From positions 70,160 to 134,159 of the forward strand of contig JBAWWL010000008.1 of the NCBI GenBank assembly GCA_037146775.1: a stretch of DNA of 64,000 bases, in the 5' to 3' direction. The position numbers were made by a program, and so were the translations under genes. Source of the stretch: Candidatus Omnitrophota bacterium (lineage in GTDB: Bacteria; Omnitrophota; Gorgyraeia; Duberdicusellales; 4484-171). This document shows, piece by piece, positions 20,938 to 64,000 of the stretch; the stretch's first letter is position 1; every line of letters starts with the position of its first letter. A model generated the notes under the pieces. That model was given only the letters and a program-made list of their open reading frames with translations, ran no database searches and was not told where the DNA came from.

Positions 20938-20945
20938 CTTGTTTT

Positions 20946-21524: not shown

Positions 21525-21535
21525 AGAAGGAGGGG

Positions 21536-21805: not shown

Positions 21806-21811
21806 GATAGA

Positions 21812-22383: not shown

Positions 22384-22394
22384 AAGGAGGATAT

Positions 22395-22918: not shown

Positions 22919-22984
22919 ATGTTAACTAAAAAATTATTGGATATTTATAAAACTGCGAAAGAATATTTTACTCGTCCGTTTCAT

Positions 22985-23015
22985 CGCCTGGGCGGTGAGG
23001 GCGAAAGATAAAATG
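22985..23015 (+). repeat. 3' module copy g (truncated)
   Basis: CGCCTGGGCGGTGAGGGCGAAAGATAAAATG; runs into the start of the 22995 ORF. Confidence 0.75.
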
Positions 23016-23432: not shown

Positions 23433-23455
23433 ATAAGTCATATAGTGGGGTCAGA

Positions 23456-23480
23456 CCTTCAGATGTCAGATGAATAAAAA
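23456..23480 (+). repeat. GGGGTCAGACCTTCAGATGTCAGAT repeat copy 2
   Basis: Exact copy. Confidence 0.9.
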
Positions 23481-23625
23481 AATACATGATCCCAGCCTAC
23501 GAAGATACTGCGAAATTCTTTTCGATCATTTCACGATGTTTAGCGGGGTTAATGCCAGTGAGACTGTCTTTTTTTTAGACAAAGCGAAAAACATATAGTC
23601 AGATTACCATTAAGGAGGCAAAAGA

Positions 23626-41309: not shown

Positions 41310-42305
41310 TTAAAACTTCAACGTCTCAACCGCTTTCTTTAAATGCTCCGGACTTAGGTGAGCGTATATCTGCGTAGTAGCAAAGTCAGCATGGCCCAAT
41401 ATTTTACCTACTGTATATAAATCCACCCCACTCATGACTAACCATGAGGCGCAGGAATGACGAAGTACATGGAAGAGCCTGCCTTTACCCAAGTTTATCT
41501 TCGCGGCCACCAATAAAGTCTTAAATGCCCTCTTGGGCTCGTCTGTGTATTTTTTACCGTTATAAACGAACACAAACGGCGTAGAATGGGGTATCTTGTG
41601 TAGGGTAGAGGAAACCATCGGATGTATGGGAATTGTGCGAAAAATACGGCTTTTTGCCTTACTACCACGTATTGTAATAGTATTGTTCGATAAATCTATG
41701 TCTTTCCATTCAAGATTAAGGATTTCACCTATTCTCATGCCGGTATAGAGTGCAGTTATGATTATAGGATATAAATGCGATTCTTTGGAAACTTCAAGCA
41801 GCTTGGATATTTCGTCTTTGGATAAATAGCGCGGAGGTTCTTTCGGTACTTTGAGTTTTTTAATCTGGTCTATCGGATTATCAAAGATGTAGTTATTTCG
41901 TTTAGCGTAATTTAAGAAAGTGCGGATATTGCCGATATAGTTATTTATGCTTTTAGGTTTTAGTTTTTTCAGCGATTGAAGATATAGTTGTATCGTATGT
42001 GGCTTAACATCCCTTAACGTGTTTGCTCCGCTAAACTTAATAAATTTCTCTAACTGTGGTATATCTGTCTTGAGTGATTTTTCTGCTTTCTTGAGTTTCG
42101 AGTATTCCTTATATTCTTCAACAATTTCTGAAAGTTTTTTGCTTGTAGGTAATTTGGCGCGGCCTTCCTCAAGCTCTATTTCTTTTTGCCGTTTTAGATG
42201 AAGCGCTAGCCTGCGGTCCTTTACCTTGAGGGAATACTGGATCCTTTTTCCGTTAAGATAGAACGAAAGCCAGTAGGTGTTGTTTCTTAGGAAGATTGAG
42301 GCCAT
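41310..42305 (-). CDS. tyrosine-type site-specific integrase (phage integrase family)
   Basis: C-terminal R...HVLRHS...TTQIYAHL catalytic motif set. Confidence 0.9.
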   Translation of the reverse strand: MASIFLRNNTYWLSFYLNGKRIQYSLKVKDRRLALHLKRQKEIELEEGRAKLPTSKKLSEIVEEYKEYSKLKKAEKSLKTDIPQLEKFIKFSGANTLRDVKPHTIQLYLQSLKKLKPKSINNYIGNIRTFLNYAKRNNYIFDNPIDQIKKLKVPKEPPRYLSKDEISKLLEVSKESHLYPIIITALYTGMRIGEILNLEWKDIDLSNNTITIRGSKAKSRIFRTIPIHPMVSSTLHKIPHSTPFVFVYNGKKYTDEPKRAFKTLLVAAKINLGKGRLFHVLRHSCASWLVMSGVDLYTVGKILGHADFATTQIYAHLSPEHLKKAVETLKF

Positions 42306-42306
42306 C

Positions 42307-42669
42307 TTAAGGCACTATGCCATATTTCATTGGTTTGTCGGAATTGATAGATGAATATTCTTCAACAATCCCATCTTTAGAAAACATTATGACCAGCATT
42401 TGATTTTTCATTTCCATTTCGCTGTGGATAATATTGACTACCGGTATAAAGTTCCAGGCGGTATTTCTTACCTTACTGGCAAAGTAAGAATAAACTAATC
42501 TTCCGTCTTTATCGAAGTAGGTTGTGTCGGGTTGGCCGAAAACCTTTACCACTTCTTCTTTGGTAGTTTTGCCTTTTTGAAGCTTATCAACATTAGTTTG
42601 TTTAATTTCTGTTCCAACAGTGGCGCAGCCGGAGAAAAGAACCAAGATACAAAATATAATTATTCTCAT
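42307..42669 (-). CDS. BamE/SmpA-OmlA-like lipoprotein
   Basis: Lipobox LFSGC; LQKGKTTKEEVVKVFGQPD motif. Confidence 0.55.
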   Translation of the reverse strand: MRIIIFCILVLFSGCATVGTEIKQTNVDKLQKGKTTKEEVVKVFGQPDTTYFDKDGRLVYSYFASKVRNTAWNFIPVVNIIHSEMEMKNQMLVIMFSKDGIVEEYSSINSDKPMKYGIVP

Positions 42670-42678
42670 AGTCTAATT

Positions 42679-43317
42679 TTAATTGAAACTTTTCAAAGCC
42701 TTTATAACCTTGCCAATAATTTCTATGGTAGTATTTTTTGGATCAATTACTATCGGTGCATAATCGTGATTACACGGCTCTAAAATAATTTTTTCGCTTT
42801 TCCCGTCTTCTGTTTTTGTTCTATAAAATTTTTTCATTGTGCATTCATCTCCTATCCGCGCCACAATAATATCGCCATTATTTATATGATTATTAGGCGA
42901 AACGATGACGAGGTCACCGTTAAAAATACCAGCTTCTTTCAAGCAGTCACCCTTTACGCGCAAGGCAAAGCAGTCTTTGTTTTTTACAAAATCATAATTT
43001 AAAATAATGGTATCAAGAATATCTTCGAATGCAAAATTAAATCTATCTGCCGGGCATTCACCGCGAACAGGTATTTCTACTGTTTTTGATATTGTAGTTT
43101 CTTTAACTGGTAACGCACCATAAAGTTCGGCCTCTGATATATTTAAAGTTTTGCAAAGTTTTTTCCTAGTTTCGGGATTAGGCTCATTAATGCCCTGTTC
43201 GATTGCTCGGATAGTAGCCAATTTTACCTTAGACTTTTCAGAAAGTTCTTCTTGAGTTAGTCCGGCCTGATCGCGATAAAATTTTAATTTTATAGTCATG
43301 GTAGATAGTATTATCAT
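42679..43317 (-). CDS. CI/LexA-like phage repressor (XRE HTH + S24 peptidase)
   Basis: N-terminal HTH (LTQEELSEKSKVKLATIRAIEQG); C-terminal S24 domain (FALRVKGDCL...). Confidence 0.85.
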   Translation of the reverse strand: MIILSTMTIKLKFYRDQAGLTQEELSEKSKVKLATIRAIEQGINEPNPETRKKLCKTLNISEAELYGALPVKETTISKTVEIPVRGECPADRFNFAFEDILDTIILNYDFVKNKDCFALRVKGDCLKEAGIFNGDLVIVSPNNHINNGDIIVARIGDECTMKKFYRTKTEDGKSEKIILEPCNHDYAPIVIDPKNTTIEIIGKVIKALKSFN

Positions 43318-50778: not shown

Positions 50779-50784
50779 TTAGAT

Positions 50785-51498
50785 ATGAATAACGATACAA
50801 AATTATTAGTTATCTGCCCTAGCCGGATACGTCCGGTCCGGCTAAAAGAAATGCTTCAAAGCTTTGATGCCACGAAAAGCGAAGGTACAGATATCGTTGT
50901 TTATGTAGCTGATGATGATCCCACGATAGAAGAATACAAGTCTTTGTTGCAAGGTAGAAATCTTGTTATCGGGCGCCGCCGGCATCTTGTAGAGGTATTG
51001 AATTATATATCCTGCGAGCTTTACCCATGGCTGGCTTATTATGGCGAGATTAACGATGATCATATATATCGCACTCCTGGGTGGGACAAGGTGCTTATAA
51101 ACGCTTTAGAGGCACGTGGAGGAGGTTGGGGAATAGCTTGCGGAACTGATCATATAAATGATAACTGGTATAAGTTCAGACATCCAAGCGCTTGTGTAAT
51201 ATCCGGAAAGATGGTTAGAACACTTGGGTTTTTTGTTTTACCGCTTTTACAGCACATGTGGACCGATGTTTTTTTAAGGGATATTTCCGAAGGCATAGGA
51301 AGATTATACTTTTGTCCGGAAGTGGTAACAGAGCACATGCATATAAGTACCGGCAAAGCCAGAAACGATGCTAACTATAAGTGGGTATATTCACCGGAAC
51401 AAATGAAGTTTGGCCAAGAAAACTACGAAAAATGGAAACGGGAACATTATATACAAACCATCGATAAATTAAAAAAGGCCATAGAAAATGACCGTTGA
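50785..51498 (+). CDS. glycosyltransferase-like protein (putative GT2-like)
   Basis: LLVICPSRIRP...VVYVADDDP pattern. Confidence 0.35.
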   Translation: MNNDTKLLVICPSRIRPVRLKEMLQSFDATKSEGTDIVVYVADDDPTIEEYKSLLQGRNLVIGRRRHLVEVLNYISCELYPWLAYYGEINDDHIYRTPGWDKVLINALEARGGGWGIACGTDHINDNWYKFRHPSACVISGKMVRTLGFFVLPLLQHMWTDVFLRDISEGIGRLYFCPEVVTEHMHISTGKARNDANYKWVYSPEQMKFGQENYEKWKREHYIQTIDKLKKAIENDR

Positions 51499-52120
51499 CA
51501 TAGCTATACCTACTTATTGCAGGCCTCAAAAACTTTCTTGGCTTATTAAATCTATTCTTGTGAATGATTACCCGGGATATCGAATAATCATTATCCCTGA
51601 TTACGAGAGAAAACATGTATTCAGGTTGATCAATGAAGCATCTCAAAAGAGCGATGCAGATATATTTTTGGGTATATCCGATGATACAGAATTTGAACGT
51701 GACGTTATTATTTCGGCAGTTTCTTCTATGAAAGAACATTTTCCTGATACCGATGGAATTATCTATATGAATTGGTTAAATCTTCCCAATGTATGCAAGG
51801 GGGCTATCGCTTTTACCGGTAAAAAATTCCGTGAAAGGTTTCCTGATAAGTTTATATATTGTCCGGACTATATAAGTCTTTATGCTGATGATGAGCTTGG
51901 AAGGTATGCAGAGTCAATAAATAAGTTAGCTTTTTGTTCCGATACAGGATTGCATCATTACCATCCATCAGCTTATCCGGATCAGGTTGATATAACTCAT
52001 AAACTTGGAAGAGTAAATCAGCCGCACGACTTGGATGTTAGATCGTTAAGGAAAGCCAAGGGTTATCTTTGGGGAAAAGATTTCAATTTGGTAACAACAG
52101 ATTTAGAAAGAATTTTATAG
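51488..52120 (+). CDS. glycosyltransferase family 2 protein
   Basis: IAIPTYCRPQKL (IPTYNR-type) N-terminal motif and DxD region. Confidence 0.6.
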   Translation: MTVDIAIPTYCRPQKLSWLIKSILVNDYPGYRIIIIPDYERKHVFRLINEASQKSDADIFLGISDDTEFERDVIISAVSSMKEHFPDTDGIIYMNWLNLPNVCKGAIAFTGKKFRERFPDKFIYCPDYISLYADDELGRYAESINKLAFCSDTGLHHYHPSAYPDQVDITHKLGRVNQPHDLDVRSLRKAKGYLWGKDFNLVTTDLERIL

Positions 52121-52137
52121 AATCAAGAGTTTTCGAG

Positions 52138-53298
52138 ATGAATAAATTTATCGTAGTCAGTTACTATACAAAAAACACAAGTTATCAAAATAGCGTAGAG
52201 AGGTTAAGGCAGTCTTTGGATAAACTTAATATTAATTATCACATCCAGCCAATCGACAACCTGGGCAGCTGGGATAAAAACACCCACTATAAAGCAAGCT
52301 TTATTTTAGAAATGCTAGATAAGTATCCGGACAAGAACATAGTTTTTATAGACGCCGATGCGATAGTACATAGTTACCCTGATCTCTTTGACGTCCTGGA
52401 TGTTGATTTTGCTGTTCATTACTTCCGCGGCCGGCAACTGGCTTCCGGTACGCTGTTCTTTAAGAATAACACTATATCCAGGGAGCTATTAAAAGCATGG
52501 ATAGAGAGAAACAATCAAGACAAAACAAACCTGGATCAGCAAAATCTACAGAATATCATTGAAGAGGTTTGGAAATACAAGATAACAATTTTCGATTTAC
52601 CACCGGAATATTGCACTATCTTTGATATGAGAGAACGAATCCCACGCCCAATTATTGAGCATTTTCAGCTTTCCCGGGAAGGCCGCATAGAAGTTAATTT
52701 ATATCATAGGGAACACGAGAAATACTCAAAACAATGGAAAGATGGATATCAACGTTCTGCCTGCGCTGTGCCTTTAGGCTATTATATTGCAGCAAAAGCA
52801 CAGAAACATTGGAAGCTGCTTGACATCGGCTGTGGAGACGGAACAACTATTAATATTTTAAATAGATTAGGATTCTGCTGCTACGGTACGGATATAACCT
52901 TGAATGGATTAATAGGCAAGCCAATTTATACTTATAAAAACACACCAATTCCAGAAAATCTGATTACAGAGGCTCCTATATGGAATATTCCATGCAAAGA
53001 CGATGAATTTGATTTTACTTTTTCAACGGATATGCTTGAGCATTTACCACCGGAACTTATAAACAAATCAATCAAAGAAATATACCGTATATCAAAATTA
53101 AAGACATATCATTGCATTGCAAATTTCAGCCATATTTTATCTAATCAAGAAATGCACTTGACTATCCGCCCGTTCGAATGGTGGCAAAAGCATTTTGAAG
53201 CGCTTAACTTTAAAAAGATAGATACCAGGATAGATGATCGCAAGGATTTTATGCTTAGCCCACTGACACGGATAGGGGGTAATGAAAATGGCATTTAA
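52138..53298 (+). CDS. nucleotide-sugar-transferase-like domain fused to class I SAM methyltransferase
   Basis: C-terminal LLDIGCGDGTTINIL motif I; N-terminal GT8/DUF-like transferase fold features (IVFIDADAIV). Confidence 0.5.
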   Translation: MNKFIVVSYYTKNTSYQNSVERLRQSLDKLNINYHIQPIDNLGSWDKNTHYKASFILEMLDKYPDKNIVFIDADAIVHSYPDLFDVLDVDFAVHYFRGRQLASGTLFFKNNTISRELLKAWIERNNQDKTNLDQQNLQNIIEEVWKYKITIFDLPPEYCTIFDMRERIPRPIIEHFQLSREGRIEVNLYHREHEKYSKQWKDGYQRSACAVPLGYYIAAKAQKHWKLLDIGCGDGTTINILNRLGFCCYGTDITLNGLIGKPIYTYKNTPIPENLITEAPIWNIPCKDDEFDFTFSTDMLEHLPPELINKSIKEIYRISKLKTYHCIANFSHILSNQEMHLTIRPFEWWQKHFEALNFKKIDTRIDDRKDFMLSPLTRIGGNENGI

Positions 53299-53473
53299 TT
53301 TAAGATGTATGATCTGCGGCAATGAGCATAAAGCTAGAAAGGATAAATTCCCTGTAGTTTATGCTATCCAAGATAAAGATGCTAAGACCGGAGCAGTCAT
53401 CGAAAAAATATTAGGTCATGTCTGTAAAAAATGCGTTCGGAAGGCACGTAAGCACGGAGGAAGGATACAATGA
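53282..53473 (+). CDS. small zinc-ribbon protein
   Basis: CMICGNEH...CKKCVRK. Confidence 0.35.
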   Translation: MKMAFNLRCMICGNEHKARKDKFPVVYAIQDKDAKTGAVIEKILGHVCKKCVRKARKHGGRIQ

Positions 53474-53670
53474 TGTGGCTGCTTACGGCTTTGTCGATTG
53501 TTGGGGTAGTGCTTAATATACAAAAGAACAGGTCCTGTTTTAAGATCTGGGTTTTTACTAATGCATCCTGGTGCGTGTATGATTTTCTTATAAAAGCTTA
53601 CGCCCAAAGTTTTTTATTTCTTGTGTACACGGCTTTAGCGGTATGGGGTTTCGTTAAATGGAAAAAGTAA
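53470..53670 (+). CDS. small two-TM membrane protein
   Basis: 66 aa. Confidence 0.35.
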   Translation: MMWLLTALSIVGVVLNIQKNRSCFKIWVFTNASWCVYDFLIKAYAQSFLFLVYTALAVWGFVKWKK

Positions 53671-53691
53671 TAATCAAAAAGGAGGGAGAAG

Positions 53692-54135
53692 ATGAAGCAG
53701 GTTACTCGAAAACAAAAGACAAGTTCGCCAAGGTTTCTTGACAACGAGAATGGCACAATCACCGATACGAAGACCGGGCTTATCTGGGTTAAAAATCCGC
53801 ATACTGATTTGCCGGAAGAGTTTAAGAATTACATGACCTGGAAGCAAGCTGTAGACGCTTGTAAGAAGCTTAACTATGCCGGCAATAAAGACTGGCGGTT
53901 GCCTACGGTAGAGGAGTTAAGAGAGCTTGTAGATTACGCACGCGGCAGTAAGTCCGAAGAGCCAGCAATAGATACATCAGTCTTTCCGGATACTAAATGC
54001 AACTGGTACTGGACATCTACTTCCTGTGCCTGGGATCCGAGCAGCGCTTGGGTAGTGGATTTCTATGGCGGCGACGTGGGCAACGGCGGTAAGGGCAACA
54101 GTAACTATGTACGTCCGGTTCGTTCCAGCCAGTGA
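53692..54135 (+). CDS. DGR target protein, DUF1566 (C-type-lectin-fold) family, variable region at C-terminus
   Basis: WRLPTVEELRELV and NWYWTSTS motifs of DUF1566. The last 106 nt (54027-54132) are a mutated copy of the TR. Confidence 0.75.
   Translation: MKQVTRKQKTSSPRFLDNENGTITDTKTGLIWVKNPHTDLPEEFKNYMTWKQAVDACKKLNYAGNKDWRLPTVEELRELVDYARGSKSEEPAIDTSVFPDTKCNWYWTSTSCAWDPSSAWVVDFYGGDVGNGGKGNSNYVRPVRSSQ
54027..54132 (+). repeat. DGR variable region (VR)
   Basis: 106-nt match to TR 54657-54762; 15 differences, all at TR adenine positions. Confidence 0.85.
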
Positions 54136-54169
54136 GTTGAAGTTTTGACTTTTTTGACGAGGTTAAAAA

Positions 54170-54544
54170 ATGAGTTTATATGAACAACTTCCGGTTTATA
54201 AATCAGCCTTAGATTTAGCGGTGTATTTTGAAAAGATAGTTAGTAATTTTGAGCGTTCTCACAAGTTCACGATTGGAGCTGATTTAAAAAACCTCTCTCG
54301 CCGGATTCTTGTTTTGGTTGCTAAAGCCAACACTAAGCAATCAAGAAAAGAATGTCTTGTCGAGGTATTAGATAAACTGGAAGAGCTTAAAATTATCATT
54401 CATCTTTGCAAGGAGATAAAAGCATTCCGTTCTTTAAACAGTTTTGAATTTGCAACAAAGTCAGTAATCGAAGTATCGAAACAATGCGAAGGGTGGTTAA
54501 GAAGCCAGAATTTCTCAGGTGTAAAACTTGAGGAAGCGAGCTAA
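54170..54544 (+). CDS. avd: Avd-like accessory variability determinant (four-helix-bundle protein)
   Basis: 124 aa, all-helical, basic; matches the four-helix-bundle/Avd family pattern; positioned between target and TR as in BPP-1. Confidence 0.65.
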   Translation: MSLYEQLPVYKSALDLAVYFEKIVSNFERSHKFTIGADLKNLSRRILVLVAKANTKQSRKECLVEVLDKLEELKIIIHLCKEIKAFRSLNSFEFATKSVIEVSKQCEGWLRSQNFSGVKLEEAS

Positions 54545-54656
54545 AGAAGTCACTGGGCGCTTATTCCACCAGGATTGGTATAAGAATGCAGGAAGTAGTA
54601 CTGAAGGGATCTGCTTTCGGAGGCCTTAAAACGGCAAGAAGTGAATAAGCAAAAGT

Positions 54657-54762
54657 TGCCTGGAATCCGAGCAGCGCTTGGATAGTGAATTTCAATAACG
54701 GCAACGTGAACAACAACAATAAGGACAACAATAACTATGTACGTCCGGTTCGTTCCAGCCAG
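54657..54762 (+). other. DGR template region (TR)
   Basis: Non-coding copy of the target gene 3' end, rich in AAC/AAT triplets; its 3' end overlaps the RT start. Confidence 0.85.
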
Positions 54763-55834
54763 CGGCTCAAAAAGTGGAATATTCTCTTACAGGAATATCT
54801 ACCGGAGTTATCTTGATTGCCGGCGCAAAAAACGCAATACTTATAATGCGCTAAAGTTTGAGATTAACGCCGAAGAGAATATTCTTAAGTTAGAGCAATC
54901 ATTAAAGAACAAAACTTACCACCCTTCGCGTTCTATTCTTTTTGCCGCCAAGAAACCTAAATTACGAGAAATATTCGCCGCTGATTTTAAAGATAGGGTA
55001 GTTCACCATATCCTGGTTAATGAACTTGAAAAGATATGGGAGCCTATCTTTATTTACGATTCCTACGCCTGCCGCGATGGGAAAGGAACACACAGGGCAG
55101 TAGCTAGATTGCAGAAATTTTTGCGTAGCGCGACAACAAACGGTAAAGTCCGGGCATATTATTTGCAGCTGGATATTAAAGACTTTTTTACAAGCATAGA
55201 CAAGAAAACACTCTTTTCTTTGATCAGCCGGAAAGTATCGAATCCGGACGTTCTCTGGCTTGTGGATGTGATCCTTTTCTGGGATTGCACTAAGTCATAT
55301 ACACCTAAAGGGCCTAAACAAATATTGCTTAATATCCCACCTAACAAAAGCCTTTTTGATAAAGATAATTTACGCGGTTTGCCTATAGGTAATCTTACCA
55401 GTCAATTCTTTGCAAATATTTACTTGAACACCCTAGATCAATTCGTGAAGCATAATCTCAAAGCAAAATATTATCTGCGTTACGTAGATGACTTTGTATT
55501 GTTAAGTAGGGATAAAGACGAGCTCCTGCGATGGAAAGAAGAAATCAAAAACTTCCTGGCTAATACCCTAAGTCTACAACTACACCCTAAACGTCAAAAG
55601 CTTCAACCGGTATCCAATGGCATAGATTTCTTGGGTTATATTACTCGGCACAACTATATCTTGGTTAGGCGTAGGGTAGTCAATAATCTTAAGGCGCTAA
55701 TTGAAGCTTTTACAAAGTCAAAAGTTAAAGATTTCAAAAAGTTTAACGATTCAATAGCTTCATACCTAGGACATTTCAAGTGGGCAAATACTTTTAGGTT
55801 GAAGAATAAACTAGGGTTATCTTATGCAAATTAG
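54737..55834 (+). CDS. DGR reverse transcriptase (bRT-like)
   Basis: Motif-by-motif similarity to Bordetella phage bRT: DFKDRVVHHIL, DSYACRDGKGTHRAV, LQLDIKDFFTSID, LPIGNLTSQFFANIY, YLRYVDDFVLL (YxDD), IDFLGYI. Confidence 0.85.
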   Translation: MYVRFVPASGSKSGIFSYRNIYRSYLDCRRKKRNTYNALKFEINAEENILKLEQSLKNKTYHPSRSILFAAKKPKLREIFAADFKDRVVHHILVNELEKIWEPIFIYDSYACRDGKGTHRAVARLQKFLRSATTNGKVRAYYLQLDIKDFFTSIDKKTLFSLISRKVSNPDVLWLVDVILFWDCTKSYTPKGPKQILLNIPPNKSLFDKDNLRGLPIGNLTSQFFANIYLNTLDQFVKHNLKAKYYLRYVDDFVLLSRDKDELLRWKEEIKNFLANTLSLQLHPKRQKLQPVSNGIDFLGYITRHNYILVRRRVVNNLKALIEAFTKSKVKDFKKFNDSIASYLGHFKWANTFRLKNKLGLSYAN

Positions 55835-56204
55835 TTTTTTTATAGATGTATCGCCATCATCTTTAAACACCACGCAGTGCCAACACTGGACAGCGCGATA
55901 CAAAGATCGTAATAGATGGAGAGAATTAATATTCGAACACTGGATGTTAAACAAACGGTACGTATTTACTAAGCCGGTAAAGGTGTTATATATTTTAAGT
56001 TTTCCAGATAGACGCCAGCGCGATAAAGATAACTATATCGGCGGCATGAAAAATATCACTGACGCATTAAAGAAAACATTTATAACTCGGGACGACGCAA
56101 GTTGGCTTAGGAACGTCGATGTAGCCTTCATAAAAGGCCCTCAAGGATTAAGAGTTCTCATTGACGAGGTAACCGAAGCGGAAAACAGAGGAAATGTAAG
56201 TTAA
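55824..56204 (+). CDS. rusA: RusA-like Holliday junction resolvase
   Basis: 126 aa; PDRRQRDKDNYIGGMKNITDAL matches the RusA catalytic D-x-D-N region. Confidence 0.55.
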   Translation: MQISFFIDVSPSSLNTTQCQHWTARYKDRNRWRELIFEHWMLNKRYVFTKPVKVLYILSFPDRRQRDKDNYIGGMKNITDALKKTFITRDDASWLRNVDVAFIKGPQGLRVLIDEVTEAENRGNVS

Positions 56205-56205
56205 A

Positions 56206-57273
56206 ATGACTAAGTATCTTTTTGACGGACACAAATTAATTTGGCACATGGATAGAGTTCATAAGCATTACAAGCTTGGTAAACGTATCCCACCTATTCA
56301 TATAGATATTGGAGTTACAAAGCTATGCAATGCACGGTGTGTTTATTGCTACGGTATCTTTCAAAAGTTAAGTGGTGATATTATCCCTAAGTCTACGCTA
56401 ATGAGGCTCTTTAAGGACGCTCCCACTTGTGGGGTTAAGTCTTTAGCTATTATTGGCGACGGCGATCCTACATTAAACTCCGGAATCTATGATGCAATAA
56501 CCGTTGGCAAGGATAGCGGGCTTGACATAGCTTTTGGAACTAACGGTATTCTGCTTGATGATGATAAGTTGTTATGCCTTTTATCTTCCTGCGCGTGGTT
56601 AAGGTTTAATCTTTCGGCAGTAGATAAGCAAAGATATTTAGATATTCACGGCGTAGACAAGTGGGGGCAAGTTAAAGGGAATATCATAAGAGCGGCAGAG
56701 CTTAAAAGTAGGTACGGCCTTAAATGCACGATTGGTTTGCAAATGGTGTTGATACCTGATTGCGTTGAGCAAGTCATACCGGAAGCGCAATTTGCTTTAG
56801 ACACCGGAGTTGACTATTTCGTTATTAAGCAATTCAGCGACCCGCAATGTGATGAAATGTCAAGGTTTTCTCTGACTTGGTATGATAACCCCGAGGTGTT
56901 AGATATCCTTAAACGCGCCGAGGCAATGTCAACGGATAAGACAGCGATTATTCCAAAATGGAACACAATATCATCTAAAGGTGTGAGGCCCTACGACCAT
57001 TGCGTTGACTGCCCGCTTATTTTCCAGATTAGCGGAAACGGAAAAGCCTACCCTTGCGGCTATCTGTTTGGCGATGATAGGTATTGCTATGGCGATTTAA
57101 ATAAACAATCGCTGGGCGAGATTTTATACAGCGAGCATTATTGGGGAGTAATTAAATATATGCGCGAGAGGTTTGATGTGCATAAGGATTGCGCGGGGTG
57201 CTGTCGTCATGACCACAGTAACAAGTTTATTTGGGGATACTTACATCCACCGGTACACTTAAATTTCATTTAG
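56206..57273 (+). CDS. radical SAM protein with C-terminal Cys-rich (SPASM/twitch-like) region
   Basis: CNARCVYC CxxxCxxC; C-terminal CVDC...PCGY...CAGCC. Confidence 0.7.
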   Translation: MTKYLFDGHKLIWHMDRVHKHYKLGKRIPPIHIDIGVTKLCNARCVYCYGIFQKLSGDIIPKSTLMRLFKDAPTCGVKSLAIIGDGDPTLNSGIYDAITVGKDSGLDIAFGTNGILLDDDKLLCLLSSCAWLRFNLSAVDKQRYLDIHGVDKWGQVKGNIIRAAELKSRYGLKCTIGLQMVLIPDCVEQVIPEAQFALDTGVDYFVIKQFSDPQCDEMSRFSLTWYDNPEVLDILKRAEAMSTDKTAIIPKWNTISSKGVRPYDHCVDCPLIFQISGNGKAYPCGYLFGDDRYCYGDLNKQSLGEILYSEHYWGVIKYMRERFDVHKDCAGCCRHDHSNKFIWGYLHPPVHLNFI

Positions 57274-57280
57274 GAGGCTT

Positions 57281-57664
57281 ATGAAACATAAAACAAATAT
57301 TGATATGAGCTTAGGTGATGTGATTGACAGGTTGACTATTCTTTCAAGAAAGATATTTTTCGGCGCCGAGGGGGCATATAAAGAGCATACTTATCTTACC
57401 GAGGGTATAGATAGGCTTGGGATTAAGCTATCCGGCGCTCTCCTTGCCGTAATTATCCGCATAAACCAGATGAATATAGAAATATGGAACTTGGAAAATT
57501 CTATCCGTAACGACACCGAAGACAAAATGGACAATGCCGAGGTTGGCAGACGCGCCAAGCTGATACGCGATTACAACAAGAAGCGGATCGAATACAAAAA
57601 CGAAATTAACCGTCTTACTGAAATGGGGTTTCGTGAGTTCAAAACAAAACACAGAAGCCAATGA
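57281..57664 (+). CDS. phage hypothetical protein
   Basis: 127 aa helical. Confidence 0.4.
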   Translation: MKHKTNIDMSLGDVIDRLTILSRKIFFGAEGAYKEHTYLTEGIDRLGIKLSGALLAVIIRINQMNIEIWNLENSIRNDTEDKMDNAEVGRRAKLIRDYNKKRIEYKNEINRLTEMGFREFKTKHRSQ

Positions 57665-58233
57665 TAAAACAAGAACTTATTGATTTTGAAGACGAAATAG
57701 CCGAGTTGTTCAAGGCTAAAAAAATAAAATGCCCTATTCACTTAAGCGGGGGTAATGAAGACGAACTTATAAGTATTTTTAAGAACATATCGCCAAAGGA
57801 TTATGTATTTTCTACTCACAGGAACCATTACCATTATCTACTTCATACCGGGGCAGCGGAAAGATTGAAGAAACAGATACTATCTGGTGACAGTATGCAC
57901 ACCTGCGACCCAGAGCATAATTTCTATTCTTCATCTATTGTGTCTGGGTGCGTGGCAATTGCCTGTGGGGTGGCGTTGGCGTTGAAGATGAAGAAAAGCA
58001 AACAAAAGGTTTGGTGCTTTGTCGGTGATGCCGGTACTGATGAGGGTTGGTTTTGGGAGGCATTAAGGTATTCGGCAGGCTTGCCGATAACTTTTGTGGT
58101 AGAAGATAACAATAGATCAGTTTTTGCCACCAACAAGCAACGTTGGGGGGGTATGAAGAAAGTTAATATTATTGCTTATAAATATAAATGCGGTTGGCCG
58201 CACGTCGGTTGTGGTGAATGGGTAACATTTTGA
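57661..58233 (+). CDS. TPP-dependent enzyme, E1-alpha/transketolase-N-like subunit
   Basis: GDAGTDEGWFWEAL resembles the TPP-binding GDG...E...N motif region. Confidence 0.5.
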   Translation: MIKQELIDFEDEIAELFKAKKIKCPIHLSGGNEDELISIFKNISPKDYVFSTHRNHYHYLLHTGAAERLKKQILSGDSMHTCDPEHNFYSSSIVSGCVAIACGVALALKMKKSKQKVWCFVGDAGTDEGWFWEALRYSAGLPITFVVEDNNRSVFATNKQRWGGMKKVNIIAYKYKCGWPHVGCGEWVTF

Positions 58234-58733
58234 AATATAAAGATTATCTTCACAATACTATGTTGCGGTTAGCCAAAGACTATAGGGTTCGTTTCTTAGG
58301 GTACAACACAAGATATGGGCATAAATTTAACGGAACGCTGGAAGGGTGCGAGGGATCTTGCTTGGAAATGCCAGTAGCGGAGAACCTTATTTTAGGCGTA
58401 GCCATGGGTATGGCTCTTGAGGGCTACAGGCTGATTGTTTGTATAGAACGAATGGACTTTCTCTGGGCTTGCGCGGATGCTCTGATTAACCACTTAGATA
58501 AAACTATAGAGTTGGGTTGGCCTGCGTTAGACATAATCATCCGGACGTGCGTGGGTGGGATTAGCCCGCTGGATCCAGGTTGCCAGCATAAGGGCGATTA
58601 TTATGATGTTTTCAAGGGATTGATGAAAGAAGTTTTTGTTACTACCTCTTGGAGTAAAGCGTTAAAACATAAAGGCGCGGTCATGGTTGTTGAGTGGAGA
58701 AATGATTATGAAAAAGATTATACTCCCCGATAG
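58218..58733 (+). CDS. TPP-dependent enzyme, E1-beta/transketolase pyrimidine-binding-like subunit
   Basis: Overlaps and follows the alpha-like subunit; Pyr-domain-like fold motifs (EMPVAENLILGVAMGMALEG). Confidence 0.45.
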   Translation: MGNILKYKDYLHNTMLRLAKDYRVRFLGYNTRYGHKFNGTLEGCEGSCLEMPVAENLILGVAMGMALEGYRLIVCIERMDFLWACADALINHLDKTIELGWPALDIIIRTCVGGISPLDPGCQHKGDYYDVFKGLMKEVFVTTSWSKALKHKGAVMVVEWRNDYEKDYTPR

Positions 58734-59532
58734 TTATAGCTATATCGGTGCTTTCTTAACTCTTAGGTGCGGATTGGGTTGTTCTTATTGCCTTAATCAT
58801 TATGACGTTTCGGGAAAGTTTGACGAGATGAGTACCGAGGATTGGATTACCGGACTTTCTCGGATAGAAACAAGGGAAGATTTTCCTATAACTCTGCAGG
58901 GCGGCGAGCCTACGGTTCATAAAGGATTTTATGATATAGCCAGTAGTCTTCATTCATTGAATCAATGCATGGATTTGCTTACCAACGGAATGTTCGATGT
59001 AAAAGAATTTCAGCAACGGTTAAGGGCTACAACTTTTTTCAGAGAAGCCAAGTATGCCTCTATAAGATTCTCTTTCCACGAATCAACGGTTGGTATTGCC
59101 TTGGCTATGAAAGTTTGGACGTTAAAAAATAACGGCTATCAGGTGGGAATATGGGGGTTGGGTGATACGGAAAGAAATAAAATCATGGCTGTGTTATGCA
59201 AACAACTTAACATTGATTTCAGGTTAAAAGAATTTTTGTCTGAGGACCTTGGAACATATAAATATCCCGAAGCCCATACTAAGAAATTCAAGAAGACGGT
59301 GATGTGCAAGCCAAGAGAGTTTCTTGTCGGGCCTTCCGGGCATATCTTCCGTTGTCATGCTGACCTATACGCTAACCGTAACCCTATAGCGCATATTCTT
59401 GATGAGAGTATTGAGTTTAAAGATTCATTCCCCTGTGATAATTACGGGCATTGTAACCCTTGTGATGTGAAGTTAAAGACCAATAGATTCCAGGAGTTTG
59501 GATATTGTTCTGTGTTAATCAAAGAACTATAA
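58708..59532 (+). CDS. radical SAM protein
   Basis: CGLGCSYC CxxxCxxC near the N-terminus; C-terminal CHAD...C...CNPC cluster. Confidence 0.65.
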   Translation: MKKIILPDSYSYIGAFLTLRCGLGCSYCLNHYDVSGKFDEMSTEDWITGLSRIETREDFPITLQGGEPTVHKGFYDIASSLHSLNQCMDLLTNGMFDVKEFQQRLRATTFFREAKYASIRFSFHESTVGIALAMKVWTLKNNGYQVGIWGLGDTERNKIMAVLCKQLNIDFRLKEFLSEDLGTYKYPEAHTKKFKKTVMCKPREFLVGPSGHIFRCHADLYANRNPIAHILDESIEFKDSFPCDNYGHCNPCDVKLKTNRFQEFGYCSVLIKEL

Positions 59533-61605: not shown

Positions 61606-62232
61606 GTGGGTACTATGTCTGAGGGAAATAGCAAAATACCGGGGATACTGGAAGTGGCAAATAAAAAACGTCATCTTTTCTTATTGCAAAAACTTCATGA
61701 AGGAAAATCTCTGTCTAGATCAGAAATAAAAGAATTAGAAAAGTTTGAAGGAAAAAATCCTAAACCGGGAATAATCACTACCCAAGAAAAGCTCGCCCAA
61801 ATTTTCGGGGTATCCAACCGAACTATCCGCTACTGGGAAAAAGAAGGTTTGCCGAAGACATCTGAAGGTTTCTACAATATCGCTGATGTTCAGGAATGGA
61901 GATTTTGTAATGATAAACGCCGCAAAAATATCCCCAAGAAAAAAGAAGATGAGTATGAATCACAGTTTAGGAAATTCAAAGCTTTATTAGCCGAGATAGA
62001 ATGGAAAGAAAAAACAAAACAACTTATTCCCATAGGTGATGTAGAAAAAGATAATGTTCAAAAAATCATAGCGATTAAAACAAAATTTTTATCTTTACCC
62101 CGCACAATAGCCCCTCAGCTAGTAGGTTTAGAAGTACAGAAGATAGAAAGTATTTTAAGGATAAGAATAGAGGAGATTGTAAATGATTTTGCAAGCGGAA
62201 AGATTACCCACACTAAGAAAAAGACAAAATAA
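61606..62232 (+). CDS. terminase small subunit (putative)
   Basis: MerR-like HTH (IFGVSNRTIRYWEKEGLP); directly upstream of and overlapping the large terminase. Confidence 0.45.
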   Translation: MGTMSEGNSKIPGILEVANKKRHLFLLQKLHEGKSLSRSEIKELEKFEGKNPKPGIITTQEKLAQIFGVSNRTIRYWEKEGLPKTSEGFYNIADVQEWRFCNDKRRKNIPKKKEDEYESQFRKFKALLAEIEWKEKTKQLIPIGDVEKDNVQKIIAIKTKFLSLPRTIAPQLVGLEVQKIESILRIRIEEIVNDFASGKITHTKKKTK

Positions 62233-64000
62233 AATTAATTGGACAGCTGCTGAGTTAAGAGCCTGGCAACTCCCAAAGAAGATAAACGTATCTCAATGGG
62301 CGGATGAAAACCGTATTCTTGATTCACGTACGTCTTCCGAGCCCGGCCGGTGGCGGACAGAGCGCACACCCTACCTACAAGGCATTATGGATGCATTTAC
62401 CGATCCCTTGATTGAATCTATCACGATTAAAGCGAGTACGCAGGTAGGTAAAACCGAAACAATATTAAACATGCTTGGCTATACTATCGATCAGGATCCG
62501 GCCCCAACGCTTTTCGTTGGCCCGCGCAAAGATGATGCCAAGATGATTTCGAGCGACAGGATAAAGCCTATGATTGAATTATCACAGGCCCTTTCGAATC
62601 ATTTAACCGATTACGATGATGATGTAACTCAATTTGTTGTAAATCTCGATAAGATGATTTTGTATTTAGCCTGGGCAAATTCGCCGGCTGCGTTATCAAG
62701 TAAACCTATCAGGTATCTTTTTCTTGATGAGGTAAATAAATATCCACCGTTTTCCGGTAAGGAAGCCGATCCGATTAAGTTAGCTACTGAAAGAACGAGA
62801 ACATTTTGGAATCGCAAGATAGTAAAAGTATCTACACCGACAACGGAAGACGGGTATATTTCGCGCGAATACGAACAGTCAGACAAAAGTAAGTTCTACG
62901 TTCCCTGTCCTCATTGCGGTAAATATCAAATTATGACCTGGGCCCAGGTTAAATTTCCTCCTGAAGAAAGAAATCCGGAAATCATAAAATTAAAAAGGCT
63001 TGCATGGTACGAATGCGAAGAATGCCGGGGAGTTATCACCGATACCATGAAACAAAAAATAATGTTAAAGGGTAAATGGCTTCCTGAAGGTTGCAGTATC
63101 GATAAAGAAGGAAATACCAAAGGCAATTTGAACAGTTCTTCTCATAGAGGGTTTTGGATTAATGCCTTGTATTCGCCATGGCTTACTTTTGCCGAAATAG
63201 TCGCAGAATGGTTAGATTCGCAAGATCGCCCGGAGCTTTTAATGAATTTTATCAATTCGTGGTTAGCTGAGGAATGGAAGGAAAAAATAGAAGAACGCAA
63301 ACCAGAGATGTTAAAAAAACTTGCTCTTGAGTATGAAGCCGGAAAAGTTCCTGAAGGTGCAATAGTGTTAGTTGCTGGCGTAGATGTACAGAAAGATCAT
63401 TTTATTTATACCATACGCGGCTTTGGGGTTGGGTATGAAAACTGGCTGATTAAGGCTGCCTATGTAGAAACTTGGGAAGAAATCATCGCACAAATAATTA
63501 ATGGTTTCTTTCCGTCAGAAATAAAAGGTTTACCGGATTTTCAGGTAAGTTTAGCAAATATAGATACCGGGCATAGGACTGATGAAGTTTATCAAATGTG
63601 CAGAGAGTTTGGGGGCATATTGCGCCCGATAAAAGGCAGCGATAATTTACGCGGATTGTTGTATAAACTTTCAACGATAGATAAATACCCTAACGGAAGA
63701 GTAATCCCGGGTGGGCTTAAACTATACCATATCGATACAAATATGTTTAAGGACAAGCTGGCCAGGCTTATCAACATCGAAGGAGAAAATAAAAAATGGC
63801 ATTTACATCGCGAGCCTTCTGAAACATATCTTAAGCAGATGTGTTCTGAAGGAAAGATATTAGAAAGAGGAAAAAATCCGAGGCAACGCAGGGAAGTTTG
63901 GAAAACTCTTTCTTTGCATACGCCTAACCATTTTTGGGATGCAGAAGTATACGCCCTTGCCGCCGCGGAAATGCTTAGGGTATATGCGTTACGCGCAGAA
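62183..64000 (+). CDS. terminase large subunit, GpA family (3' end beyond window)
   Basis: Walker A STQVGKT; lambda gpA-like N-terminal ATPase; open to the window end. Confidence 0.8.
   Translation, partial: MILQAERLPTLRKRQNKINWTAAELRAWQLPKKINVSQWADENRILDSRTSSEPGRWRTERTPYLQGIMDAFTDPLIESITIKASTQVGKTETILNMLGYTIDQDPAPTLFVGPRKDDAKMISSDRIKPMIELSQALSNHLTDYDDDVTQFVVNLDKMILYLAWANSPAALSSKPIRYLFLDEVNKYPPFSGKEADPIKLATERTRTFWNRKIVKVSTPTTEDGYISREYEQSDKSKFYVPCPHCGKYQIMTWAQVKFPPEERNPEIIKLKRLAWYECEECRGVITDTMKQKIMLKGKWLPEGCSIDKEGNTKGNLNSSSHRGFWINALYSPWLTFAEIVAEWLDSQDRPELLMNFINSWLAEEWKEKIEERKPEMLKKLALEYEAGKVPEGAIVLVAGVDVQKDHFIYTIRGFGVGYENWLIKAAYVETWEEIIAQIINGFFPSEIKGLPDFQVSLANIDTGHRTDEVYQMCREFGGILRPIKGSDNLRGLLYKLSTIDKYPNGRVIPGGLKLYHIDTNMFKDKLARLINIEGENKKWHLHREPSETYLKQMCSEGKILERGKNPRQRREVWKTLSLHTPNHFWDAEVYALAAAEMLRVYALRAE

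What the first reader, a model, noticed from the sequence alone, without database searches (positions are those of the whole stretch)
53692..55834. Complete diversity-generating retroelement (target-VR / Avd / TR / RT) embedded in the prophage
The 54737..55834 ORF aligns motif-for-motif with the Bordetella phage BPP-1 DGR reverse transcriptase, including YVDD and the DGR-typical SYACRDGKGTH and LPIGNLTSQFFAN blocks. Upstream is a 124-aa all-helical basic protein of the Avd/four-helix-bundle type, and before it a DUF1566 (C-type-lectin-fold) protein. The last 106 nt of that gene (54027-54132, VR) match a non-coding copy at 54657-54762 (TR). There are exactly 15 substitutions and every one is at a TR adenine (14 A->G, 1 A->T). 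The TR is built of AAC/AAT triplets. The 3' 33 nt (AACTATGTACGTCCGGTTCGTTCCAGCCAG, an IMH-like region) are identical in VR and TR. Adenine-restricted mutagenesis of this kind is the diagnostic signature of an active DGR.
Basis: partly seen in the sequence, partly recalled or inferred. Interest (0 to 1): 0.9.

Follow-up and report, generated by a model that had tools for sequence, protein, structure and literature searches.

The report
Prophage diversity-generating retroelement, confirmed
A prophage in an uncultivated Omnitrophota bacterium carries a complete, apparently working diversity-generating retroelement that rewrites the binding tip of a small lectin-fold protein; it is an ordinary member of a well-known system, though its lineage has a conserved structured RNA beside the template that matches no Rfam 15 family.

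Summary
VR (54027-54132) and TR (54657-54762) are a 106-nt repeat with 15 differences. All 15 lie at TR adenines (14 A>G, 1 A>T; P about 5e-9), and all fall in codon positions 1-2. The three genes are a DUF1566/C-type-lectin-fold target, an Avd and an RT whose best solved relative is the BPP-1 DGR RT. The cassette lies in a temperate prophage (integrase, CI-like repressor, RusA, terminase) of a Candidatus Omnitrophota MAG.

In 75 related loci, 96.4% of 1608 TR/VR mismatches are at TR adenines. One relative, sampled twice, has identical TR and flanks but VRs that differ almost only at TR-adenine positions, so the lineage diversifies in nature.

Beyond the finding:
- The RT start codon lies inside TR (26-nt overlap).
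- A covariation-supported structured RNA (54504-54650) precedes TR.
- A long-range helix pairs avd codons (54483-54500) with RT codons (54915-54932).
- None of this matches an Rfam family.

Verdict: a genuine, probably active DGR and a new member of a known kind. Activity at this locus itself and the target's ligand remain untested.

The parts
53692..54135 (+). Target (variable-protein) gene, 147 aa, consisting of a DUF1566/Lcl_C C-type-lectin-fold domain only. No signal peptide or transmembrane segment is visible by eye.
   Evidence: ORF. Pfam PF07603, E = 6.9e-37. AlphaFold model pLDDT 92.3. Best fold hit 8q4e_A (Lcl C-terminal domain), then C-type lectin-like domains. NCBI protein MEI8350071.1.
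54027..54132 (+). Variable repeat (VR), the last 106 nt of the target ORF. The substituted zone is 54034-54101. The invariant IMH-like tail is 54102-54132 (31 nt).
   Evidence: 15 differences from TR, all at TR adenines, all in codon positions 1-2, changing 11 codons.
54170..54544 (+). Accessory variability determinant (Avd) gene, 124 aa, pI 9.0.
   Evidence: Pfam bAvd 47.1 bits against a gathering score of 40. PHROG 3206 'Avd protein of DGR', E = 7.7e-18. NCBIfam DivGenRetAVD 43 bits, below its cut-off of 80. pI.
54483..54500 (+). 5' arm of a long-range RNA helix, inside the avd ORF (codons QCEGW). It pairs with 54915-54932.
   Evidence: I6; closing helix of the MFE fold; present in all 21 loci examined, window included; 90.7% of cells paired against 35-53% when slid; one pair shows GC, AU, UA, CG and UG; recovered by an unbiased scan.
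54504..54541 (+). Conserved hairpin at the 3' end of avd, ending just before the avd stop codon (stem 54511-54519 / 54527-54535, with outer pairs 54504-5 / 54540-1).
   Evidence: 8 of 9 stem pairs have compensatory changes.
54559..54650 (+). Structured non-coding RNA domain between avd and TR. It has a closing helix (54559-54567 / 54641-54650) and inner hairpins (54568-70 / 54577-79 and 54591-98 / 54611-18). It ends 6 nt before TR.
   Evidence: 96.5% of cells paired, 26 of 33 pairs with compensatory changes, 0 of 500 shuffles reach this; covariance model R1 hits once per locus upstream of TR in 88 of 99 related loci, and once in the window (154.7 bits); no Rfam match.
54657..54762 (+). Template repeat (TR): 35 adenines and 12 AAY codons. 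Its last 26 nt overlap the RT ORF.
54737..55834 (+). DGR reverse transcriptase, 365 aa. The start codon lies inside TR and there is no other in-frame start.
   Evidence: 8ub7_A (BPP-1 bRT) at E = 7.4e-43, with equivalents of R74, I181, Q187 and the YxDD motif conserved. PHROG 1423, E = 4e-113. NCBI MEI8350073.1.
54915..54932 (+). 3' arm of the long-range RNA helix, inside the RT ORF (codons 61-66, YHPSRS).
41310..43317 (-). Left end of the prophage: tyrosine integrase (41310-42305), a small ORF, and a CI/LexA-like HTH-S24 repressor (42679-43317).
   Evidence: Pfam; PHROG 1 integrase, E = 1.8e-71.
55824..56204 (+). RusA-like Holliday-junction resolvase immediately after the RT (phage recombination/nin-type module).
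   Evidence: PHROG 34, E = 3e-11. The Pfam and NCBIfam hits are weak.
61606..64000 (+). Phage packaging genes: small terminase (61606-62232) and large terminase (an ORF open from about 62201 that runs off the end of the window).
   Evidence: PHROG 57, E = 6e-23; PHROG 15, E = 7.5e-187.

Best explanation
This is a complete, intact diversity-generating retroelement (target-VR, avd, TR, RT) carried by a temperate prophage of a Candidatus Omnitrophota bacterium.

Proposed mechanism:
1. An RNA is made that runs from the 3' end of avd to about 170 nt into the RT ORF. It folds so that a long-range helix (54483-54500 with 54915-54932) encloses a structured leader (54504-54650), TR, and the first 60 RT codons.
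2. The RT, together with the Avd protein, reverse-transcribes TR and misincorporates opposite template adenines.
3. The mutagenised cDNA replaces VR. It is guided at the 3' side by the 31-nt tail that is identical in VR and TR, and at the 5' side by TR/VR homology.
4. Up to 17 codons with mutable adenines are rewritten, 11 of them in the current VR. These codons form the C-terminal strands of a 147-aa C-type-lectin-fold protein, giving a very large ligand-binding repertoire.

What is shown: gene identities, adenine-restricted TR/VR divergence, the codon design of TR, conserved catalytic and dNTP-contacting RT residues, the conserved RNA structures, and VR turnover in a relative.

What is inferred: transcription of the RNA, priming, the role of each RNA element, homing, and the target's job. 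The target is most likely a variable binding protein that serves phage-host recognition, but it has no tail-fibre domain, signal peptide or membrane anchor.
For: TR/VR pair:
- 106 nt, 15 of 15 differences at TR adenines, P = 5e-9; 33 of 35 TR adenines in codon positions 1-2; all changes non-synonymous.
- 15 of the 29 adenines in the variable 75 nt are substituted.

Proteins:
- The RT's best solved relative is the BPP-1 DGR RT (7e-43, against 1e-18 for group II). The FKDR/KLR, LPIGNLTSQ and YVDD blocks align. Handa et al. (bioRxiv 10.1101/2023.10.23.563531) show that R74, I181 and Q187 contact the incoming dNTP.
- Avd.
- Target fold.

Family:
- 109 TR/VR pairs in 75 related loci; 1550 of 1608 mismatches (96.4%) at TR adenines.
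- TR ends 21-38 nt inside the RT ORF in 63 of 75 loci.
- L030 and L097 share an identical TR and 300-nt flanks, but their two VRs differ at 9 positions (9 at TR-A) and 16 positions (15 at TR-A).

RNA:
- Long-range helix, with compensatory wobble-position changes between a Gly codon of avd and a His/Gln codon of the RT.
- Structured leader with 26 of 33 covarying pairs, found in 88 of 99 loci.

Prophage context.
Against: - No population or read data exist for this locus. The exact VR/TR pattern was not found in the viral or metagenome collections, so current activity here is inferred.
- The Avd score is below the NCBIfam equivalog cut-off.
- There is no GC-rich inverted repeat after VR. IMH and IMH* are identical, so the element that tells donor from recipient is unidentified.
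- No conserved stem-loop or primer-template duplex was found downstream of TR, where BPP-1 has its spacer. The priming step therefore cannot be mapped.
- 14 of 15 changes are A>G. This is extreme even for the family (57% A>G; P about 0.003 at the family rate).
- The target's role is unknown.
Confidence: 0.85

Rival explanations
1. It is a genuine DGR but no longer active, so the VR/TR pattern is a fossil of past homing. This could result from a silent prophage, a lost host factor, or a defective RNA element.
For: There are no within-population data for this locus, and exact-pattern scans found no second copy with a different VR. The window has one target where many relatives have two. The gene order differs from the closest relative L038.
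Against: All three ORFs are intact, with catalytic and dNTP-contacting residues conserved. There is not a single non-adenine difference between VR and TR and no difference in the 31-nt tail; ordinary drift after inactivation would add such changes. All conserved RNA helices are intact in the window, and R1 scores 154.7 bits.
Confidence: 0.12
2. It is not a DGR. On this view the repeat is an ordinary partial gene duplication, and the RT belongs to a group II intron, a retron or a defence RT.
For: NCBI annotates the RT only as 'reverse transcriptase/maturase family protein'. The NCBIfam group II, retron and DRT models give sub-threshold hits.
Against: All those NCBIfam hits are far below their cut-offs (126 bits against 300 for group II). 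The DGR RT is by far the best solved match. Adenine-only divergence has P = 5e-9. The Avd gene and lectin-fold target are in the canonical order. No Rfam group II intron or retron RNA is present.
Confidence: 0.01
3. The near-exclusive A>G spectrum (14 of 15) reflects adenosine deamination of the template RNA (A-to-I, read as G) rather than polymerase misincorporation.
For: 14 of 15 changes are A>G, P = 2e-6 under equal A>G/T/C. A>G is also the commonest class across the family.
Against: One change here is A>T. In the family, 515 A>T and 147 A>C changes accompany 888 A>G, which deamination cannot produce. No deaminase gene lies in or next to the cassette. The RT keeps the residues that contact the incoming dNTP in BPP-1. 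Selection for Gly, Asp and Ser at binding sites can also skew a single VR.
Confidence: 0.02
4. The DGR is active, but its target is not a virion receptor-binding protein. It could instead be a soluble intracellular or released binder, for example one used against host defences or in lysogenic conversion.
For: The target is 147 aa and consists of the DUF1566 domain only. No signal peptide, membrane anchor or tail-fibre domain is seen (sequence by eye). The cassette sits between the recombination module and the terminase genes, not among tail genes, and this position is conserved in relatives. Roux et al. 2021 (PMC8144416) note domain-less targets of unknown location in CPR and archaea.
Against: Phage-encoded DGRs with known function diversify receptor-binding proteins (BPP-1 Mtd; Wu et al. 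2018, PMC5758913). The structural genes lie beyond the window, so association with the virion cannot be excluded. The lectin fold is a ligand-binding scaffold in either case.
Confidence: 0.3

Closest known systems
Bordetella phage BPP-1 DGR (mtd-avd-TR-brt), the prototype
   Same: The gene order is the same: target-VR, avd, TR, RT, in a temperate phage. It has an Avd accessory protein and an RT of the same clade (best PDB hit 8ub7_A). VR sits at the 3' end of a C-type-lectin-fold target. Substitutions are adenine-specific and fall in codon positions 1-2 of AAY-rich TR codons. [quoted passage not shown]
   Different: - The target is a 147-aa DUF1566-only protein, not the Mtd tail-fibre protein.
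- There is no 140-nt non-coding spacer after TR. Instead the RT ORF starts 26 nt inside TR.
- A roughly 150-nt structured RNA lies upstream of TR.
- The upstream arm of the long-range helix is 157 nt before TR rather than adjacent to it.
- IMH and IMH* are identical, and there is no hairpin after VR.
- The Rfam RT-10 motif of the BPP-1 spacer is not detected.
Legionella pneumophila DGR and the 'category d' / CLec2 DGRs of Wu et al. 2018 (DUF1566 targets)
   Same: VR lies in a DUF1566/Lcl_C domain. Wu et al. report that about half of such targets are short, DUF1566-only proteins (PMC5758913). The best fold match of the target is the Legionella Lcl C-terminal domain.
   Different: Legionella LdtA is a surface lipoprotein encoded on a chromosomal island, and its DGR needs a hairpin after IMH. 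Here there is no lipobox or signal peptide and no hairpin, and the element is phage-borne.
DGRs of nano-sized uncultivated lineages (CPR/DPANN; Paul et al. 2017, Roux et al. 2021 clades 2 and 5)
   Same: Small targets without recognisable extra domains, an environmental uncultivated host, and often several targets per cassette (the family statistics are).
   Different: Those clades are described as almost entirely cell-encoded. This lineage is found in an Omnitrophota prophage and in 27 IMG/VR viral contigs, with terminase genes next to the cassette.
RT-associated structured RNA motifs RT-1 to RT-19 (Weinberg et al. 2017)
   Same: A conserved structured RNA lies next to an RT gene. RT-10 lies in the BPP-1 DGR, and the authors expected more DGR-linked motifs (PMC5737381).
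   Different: No Rfam 15 family matches 53600-55900 even at E = 1. The RNA here lies between avd and TR, not between TR and the RT.

Membership tests
Diversity-generating retroelement (DGR) | The reverse transcriptase belongs to the DGR RT clade | tested here: met
   Best solved relative is 8ub7_A, the BPP-1 bRT, at E = 7.4e-43 and 150 bits; the best group II intron RT scores 1e-18 and 71 bits. PHROG 1423, E = 4e-113. The group II, retron, DRT and Abi NCBIfam models are all far below their cut-offs. No formal tree was built.
Diversity-generating retroelement (DGR) | RT catalytic YxDD motif, plus the DGR-typical [I/L]GxxxSQ block and the fingertip Arg that contact the incoming dNTP (bRT R74, I181, Q187) | tested here: met
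   The alignment shows YVDD aligned with YMDD, LPIGNLTSQ with IPIGSLTSQ, and KLR with KPR (R74). The roles of these residues come from Handa et al. 2024.
Diversity-generating retroelement (DGR) | A TR/VR repeat pair whose differences are (almost) restricted to TR adenines | tested here: met
   15 of 15 differences are at TR adenines, P = 5e-9. In the family the figure is 96.4% of 1608.
Diversity-generating retroelement (DGR) | TR adenines are concentrated in codon positions 1-2 (AAY codons), so that mutagenesis recodes amino acids | tested here: met
   33 of 35 adenines are in positions 1-2, there are 12 AAY codons, and all 11 altered codons are non-synonymous.
Diversity-generating retroelement (DGR) | VR lies at the C-terminus of a target protein with a C-type-lectin (or Ig) fold | tested here: met
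   Pfam Lcl_C, E = 7e-37. Model pLDDT 92.3. Foldseek hits are 8q4e_A and then many C-type lectin-like domains. VR covers residues 112-147.
Diversity-generating retroelement (DGR) | An accessory protein Avd (or HRDC) is encoded in the cassette | tested here: met
   Pfam bAvd scores 47.1 bits against a gathering score of 40. PHROG 3206 'Avd protein of DGR', E = 7.7e-18.
Diversity-generating retroelement (DGR) | Avd meets the NCBIfam equivalog model DivGenRetAVD (NF033474) | tested here: not met
   43.3 bits against a cut-off of 80, although the match is full length. This indicates a divergent Avd, not the absence of one.
Diversity-generating retroelement (DGR) | An IMH at the 3' end of VR, with a non-identical IMH* in TR that marks the donor | tested here: inconclusive
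   The invariant GC-containing tail is present but is identical in VR and TR over 31 nt; divergence starts at the next base. Wu et al. report identical IMH and IMH* in some DGRs.
Diversity-generating retroelement (DGR) | A GC-rich inverted repeat (cruciform) downstream of VR. This is present in BPP-1 and Legionella and in 34% of DGRs, so it is not universal. | tested here: not met
   Folding 54100-54185 as DNA gives -3.2 kcal/mol, z = +0.96.
Diversity-generating retroelement (DGR) | [quoted passage not shown] | tested here: inconclusive
   An upstream-downstream helix exists and covaries, but its arms lie 157 nt before and 153 nt after TR. No conserved stem-loop is found downstream of TR. Covarying stem-loops lie upstream instead. 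Their functional equivalence to the BPP-1 elements is unknown.
Diversity-generating retroelement (DGR) | Ongoing diversification: VR heterogeneity confined to TR-adenine positions | not testable with these tools
   No reads are available, and exact-pattern scans found no other copy. In a relative the feature is met: L030 and L097 differ at 24 of 25 positions that are TR adenines, with identical flanks.
Diversity-generating retroelement (DGR) | RT-Avd-dependent, adenine-mutagenic cDNA synthesis and homing | not testable with these tools
   This needs an experiment.
Temperate prophage | Integrase, repressor, replication genes and packaging genes in one co-oriented block | tested here: met
   Integrase and S24/HTH repressor on the minus strand. 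Then, on the plus strand: replication initiator, ParB, RusA, ParB-methylase, TerS and TerL. The same cassette-ParB-MTase-TerS-TerL order occurs in IMG/VR contigs.
Temperate prophage | Attachment sites and capsid/tail genes | not tested
   The window ends inside the large terminase gene. The right end and the structural genes lie outside it.
Rfam RNA families, including RT-1 to RT-19 and group II intron domains | A match to a curated covariance model | tested here: not met
   There is no match at E up to 1 in 53600-55900.

The most novel reading that the evidence does not exclude
In this large, mostly phage-borne DGR lineage the cis-acting RNA may be arranged differently from the BPP-1 paradigm. 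The structured protein-binding elements would sit 5' of TR in the avd-TR intergenic region. The non-coding 'spacer' would be replaced by the 5' end of the RT ORF. The whole RNA of about 450 nt would be clamped by base-pairing between avd codons and RT codons, strongly enough that an RT residue switches between His and Gln to keep a pair. If so, priming, termination and possibly the coupling of RT translation to reverse transcription (start codon and an AAGGA box inside TR) work through a permuted ribonucleoprotein architecture. I found no description of such an arrangement in the papers consulted or in Rfam 15.
Probability: 0.35. Interest if true: 0.55.

Novelty: new member of a known kind. 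Interest (0 to 1): 0.35.

Why it matters
As a DGR it is ordinary. About 31,000 DGRs are catalogued, short DUF1566-only targets are a recognised class, and the capped homologue search returned 7,986 proteins at E <= 1e-20, the best non-self ones 64-82% identical to this RT.

Its value lies elsewhere:
- It gives the RT and the DUF1566 protein of an Omnitrophota MAG, labelled only generically by NCBI, a DGR reading, and documents a temperate phage with targeted hypermutation in this little-known phylum.
- It gives a clean, compact example (2.1 kb, one target) from a lineage that demonstrably diversifies in nature.
- It exposes a strongly covarying RNA leader and a coding-to-coding long-range helix. 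These make the question of how general the BPP-1 RNA architecture is directly testable in a distant, abundant DGR lineage.

Tried and rejected
- **Exact-protein look-ups.** Look-ups of the RT, Avd and P0001 in the contig index found nothing, so the neighbourhood had to be annotated by hand.
- **Degenerate VR/TR pattern.** A pattern with N at every TR adenine was scanned against metagenome and viral contigs to find sister copies with other VRs. There were no hits.
- **Phage DNA search.** A blastn search of GenBank phages with the cassette gave only short 73% matches in unrelated RTs.
- **BPP-1-type hairpin after VR.** None was found.
- **Promoter and terminator scan** of 53000-56400: no more sites than in shuffled sequence.
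- **Rfam.** No family matched.
- **RNAduplex on 260-nt flanks.** It produced uninformative end-to-end pairings and was replaced by short-arm searches.
- **Conserved structure between TR and the 3' arm.** RNAalifold found essentially none. The 13-bp hairpin seen in the window (54776-88 / 54873-85) is only weakly supported across relatives: 76% paired against 41-62% when slid. It is left as inconclusive.
- **Helix involving the 3' end of TR** (a candidate primer-template duplex): the unbiased stack scan found none.
- **A second VR or target in the window.** None exists.
- **The deamination idea for the A>G excess.** Rejected on the family spectrum.
Full report
**The observation**

The region contains three co-oriented ORFs: 53692-54135 (147 aa), 54170-54544 (124 aa) and 54737-55834 (365 aa). 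A script and the repeat finder (family D1) both find one 106-nt direct repeat, 54027-54132 and 54657-54762, 630 nt apart.
- There are exactly 15 mismatches, all at adenines of the downstream copy (14 A>G, 1 A>T).
- Similarity collapses immediately outside the repeat.
- With 35 adenines in 106 nt, the chance that all 15 differences fall on adenines is 5e-9.
- In the reading frame of the upstream gene, 33 of the 35 TR adenines are in codon positions 1 or 2, and twelve codons are AAC or AAT.
- All 11 altered codons change the amino acid (residues 115-137).
- 15 of the 29 adenines in the variable 75 nt are substituted.
Everything else in the description is accurate.
- No further copy of either end of the repeat exists in the 64 kb.

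**The genes**

- *Target.* It is a Pfam Lcl_C/DUF1566 domain and nothing else (E = 7e-37). An AlphaFold model built on 72 homologues is confident (pLDDT 92.3). Its best solved match is the Legionella Lcl C-terminal domain (8q4e_A), followed by dozens of C-type lectin-like domains. VR encodes the C-terminal strands. By eye the N-terminus (MKQVTRKQKTSSPRF...) has no signal peptide or membrane segment.
- *Avd.* The 124-aa protein (pI 9.0) passes the Pfam bAvd gathering score and matches PHROG 3206 'Avd protein of DGR' (E = 8e-18). It is below the stricter NCBIfam equivalog cut-off.
- *RT.* Its best solved relative is the BPP-1 DGR RT in the bRT-Avd-RNA complex (8ub7_A, E = 7e-43). The best group II intron RT scores 1e-18. 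The alignment conserves YxDD, the LPIGxLTSQ block and the fingertip arginine. According to Handa et al. (bioRxiv 10.1101/2023.10.23.563531), the corresponding bRT residues R74, I181 and Q187 contact the incoming nucleotide. NCBIfam models for group II, retron, DRT and Abi RTs are all far below threshold.

**Where it sits**

The RT and target are 100% identical to NCBI proteins MEI8350073.1 and MEI8350071.1 of a Candidatus Omnitrophota MAG (contig 153,777 bp). There they are annotated only as 'reverse transcriptase/maturase family' and 'DUF1566 domain-containing'.

The first 13 kb of the window are cellular: a 940-aa ABC-type ATPase that I take, from size and architecture, to be UvrA-like, then NAD synthetase and tRNA-Met.

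From 41.3 kb the genes form a temperate-phage layout:
- On the minus strand: integrase and an HTH-S24 repressor.
- On the plus strand: a replication initiator, ParB, a set of radical-SAM, glycosyltransferase and methyltransferase genes, the DGR, RusA, more radical-SAM and TPP enzymes, a ParB-DNA methylase, small terminase, and a large terminase that runs off the window.

So 'embedded in the prophage' is right. However, the cassette lies between the recombination and packaging modules, not among tail genes, which are outside the window. The same placement (cassette, ParB-methylase, TerS, TerL) recurs in related viral contigs. The closest is L038/L041, which is syntenic over about 12 kb but carries two targets.

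**The family**

I fetched 119 related loci: 12 from species-representative genomes (mostly Omnitrophota, also Nitrospirota, Desulfobacterota, Planctomycetia), 27 IMG/VR viral contigs and 80 metagenome contigs. An automatic TR/VR search gave 109 pairs in 75 loci:
- 1550 of 1608 mismatches (96.4%) are at TR adenines.
- The spectrum is A>G 888, A>T 515, A>C 147.
- TR ends 21-38 nt inside the extrapolated RT ORF in 63 of 75 loci.
- 33 loci have two or more VRs.

The window's 14:1 A>G ratio is at the edge of this distribution (4 of 109 pairs reach 90% or more). The family spectrum excludes a deamination mechanism.

One element was sampled in different metagenomes. L030 and L097 have identical TR and identical 300-nt flanks, but their two VRs differ at 9 and 16 positions, of which 9 and 15 are TR adenines. 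That is direct evidence that this lineage diversifies in nature. It is not evidence for the window's copy.

**RNA features not in the finding**

1. *TR overlaps the RT start.* The RT start codon (54737) lies inside TR, and there is no other in-frame start. There is therefore no non-coding spacer after TR. In BPP-1 a 140-nt spacer there supplies the primer and the protein-binding elements.
2. *A long-range helix.* A helix of 15-18 bp joins avd codons QCEGW (54483-54500) to RT codons YHPSRS (54915-54932).
   - It closes the minimum-free-energy fold of the region.
   - It is present at the homologous position in all 21 loci examined, the window included.
   - 90.7% of cells are paired, against 35-53% in slid controls.
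   - The pair formed by the wobble base of the avd Gly codon and the wobble base of the RT His codon occurs as GC (11), AU (6), UA (2), CG (1) and UG (1). The RT residue switches to Gln where needed.
3. *A structured leader.* The avd 3' end and the 112-nt avd-TR spacer form a conserved structure: a hairpin ending just before the avd stop codon, and a closed domain (54559-54650) with two inner hairpins that ends 6 nt before TR.
   - 96.5% of cells are paired.
   - 26 of 33 pairs have compensatory changes.
   - No shuffle out of 500 reaches the observed values.
   - A covariance model of it hits exactly once per locus, just upstream of TR, in 88 of 99 loci, including distant ones not used to build it. 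It hits once in the window.
   - An unbiased scan for covarying stacks over the whole 490-nt region recovers these helices, plus two short stacks I judge spurious.
4. *No conserved structure downstream of TR.* RNAalifold finds none between TR and the 3' arm. A 13-bp hairpin specific to the window is inconclusive.
5. *No database match.* No Rfam 15 family matches, including the RT-associated motifs of Weinberg et al., of which RT-10 lies in the BPP-1 spacer.

Handa et al. looked for conserved elements using only 40 nt upstream and 100 nt downstream of TR, so the arms described here would fall outside their search.

**Mechanism**

The best-supported reading is canonical mutagenic retrohoming. 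An RNA spanning at least 54483-54932 folds as above. RT plus Avd copy TR with misincorporation at adenines. The cDNA replaces VR, using the identical 31-nt tail as the 3' homology and the TR/VR match as the 5' homology.

What is shown is the anatomy, the adenine-restricted pattern, the conserved catalytic residues, the conserved RNA structure, and VR turnover in a relative.

What is inferred is transcription, priming, termination, homing and the role of each RNA element. The priming nucleotide could not be located. The structured domain abutting TR may act as the stop for cDNA synthesis, as the avd:Sp duplex does in BPP-1, but that is a guess.

Two features of BPP-1 are missing. There is no hairpin after VR, although only 34% of DGRs have one (Wu et al. 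2018). IMH and IMH* are not distinct, which is also known from other DGRs.

The function of the variable protein is unknown. A phage receptor-binding or adhesion role is the default by analogy, but the lack of any anchoring domain and the position of the gene leave other roles open.

**Comparison and novelty**

This is a DGR of the DUF1566 ('category d', CLec2) type. Wu et al. already describe short DUF1566-only targets in that category. The element meets every defining feature that could be tested. The exceptions are the strict NCBIfam Avd threshold and non-universal BPP-1 features.

It is therefore a new member of a known kind. The part that may be new is the RNA architecture of the lineage, which I rate separately as the novel case.

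Noticed in passing
window 54723-54739: An AAGGA box (part of the nearly invariant TR codons AAG GAC) lies 11 nt upstream of the RT ATG. The ATG itself comes from the conserved TR sequence AAC TAT GTA. The RT's ribosome-binding site and start codon therefore appear to be built into the template RNA, which could couple or oppose translation and reverse transcription.
   Followed up: partly
window 48575-53298 and 56206-59532: The prophage carries an unusual load of enzymes around the DGR: a B12-binding radical SAM protein, several glycosyltransferases, a fused glycosyltransferase-methyltransferase, a radical SAM/SPASM protein, a split TPP-dependent E1/transketolase-like pair and another radical SAM protein. 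Most are absent from related phage contigs. They may be a sugar or DNA modification pathway carried as a moron.
   Followed up: partly
window 53282-53670: Two tiny ORFs lie directly upstream of the target: a 63-aa protein with two CxxC pairs, and a 66-aa membrane protein matching only the C-terminal end of the PnuC NMN-transporter family (E = 2e-7). Both are conserved in the closest related phage, L038/L041.
   Followed up: no
L089:2341-3370: A relative has three tandem targets. Two of its VRs (at 2341 and 2808) carry almost the same set of adenine substitutions, differing at 2 positions. This suggests recent target duplication, or one cDNA pool homing into two genes.
   Followed up: no
window 12977-24000: tRNA-Met (12977-13050) is followed by about 10 kb of lower GC (0.34-0.38) with many short ORFs lacking Pfam or PHROG matches. 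This may be a separate genomic island upstream of the prophage.
   Followed up: no
window 40580-41305: A NYN-domain (predicted RNase) protein abuts the integrase gene at the presumed left prophage boundary. No tRNA or obvious att repeat was identified there.
   Followed up: no
window 60131-61429: A fused ParB-N-terminal / N6-N4 DNA methyltransferase lies just upstream of the terminase genes. It is conserved in 16 related loci next to the DGR cassette.
   Followed up: partly
window 54619-54636, and the same position in related loci (A3 columns 146-170): Inside the leader domain there is a variable-length hairpin, often capped by a tetraloop (GCAA in L001, GAAA in L015). It covaries by eye but is deleted in L026 and L037. 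It was not included in the consensus structure.
   Followed up: partly
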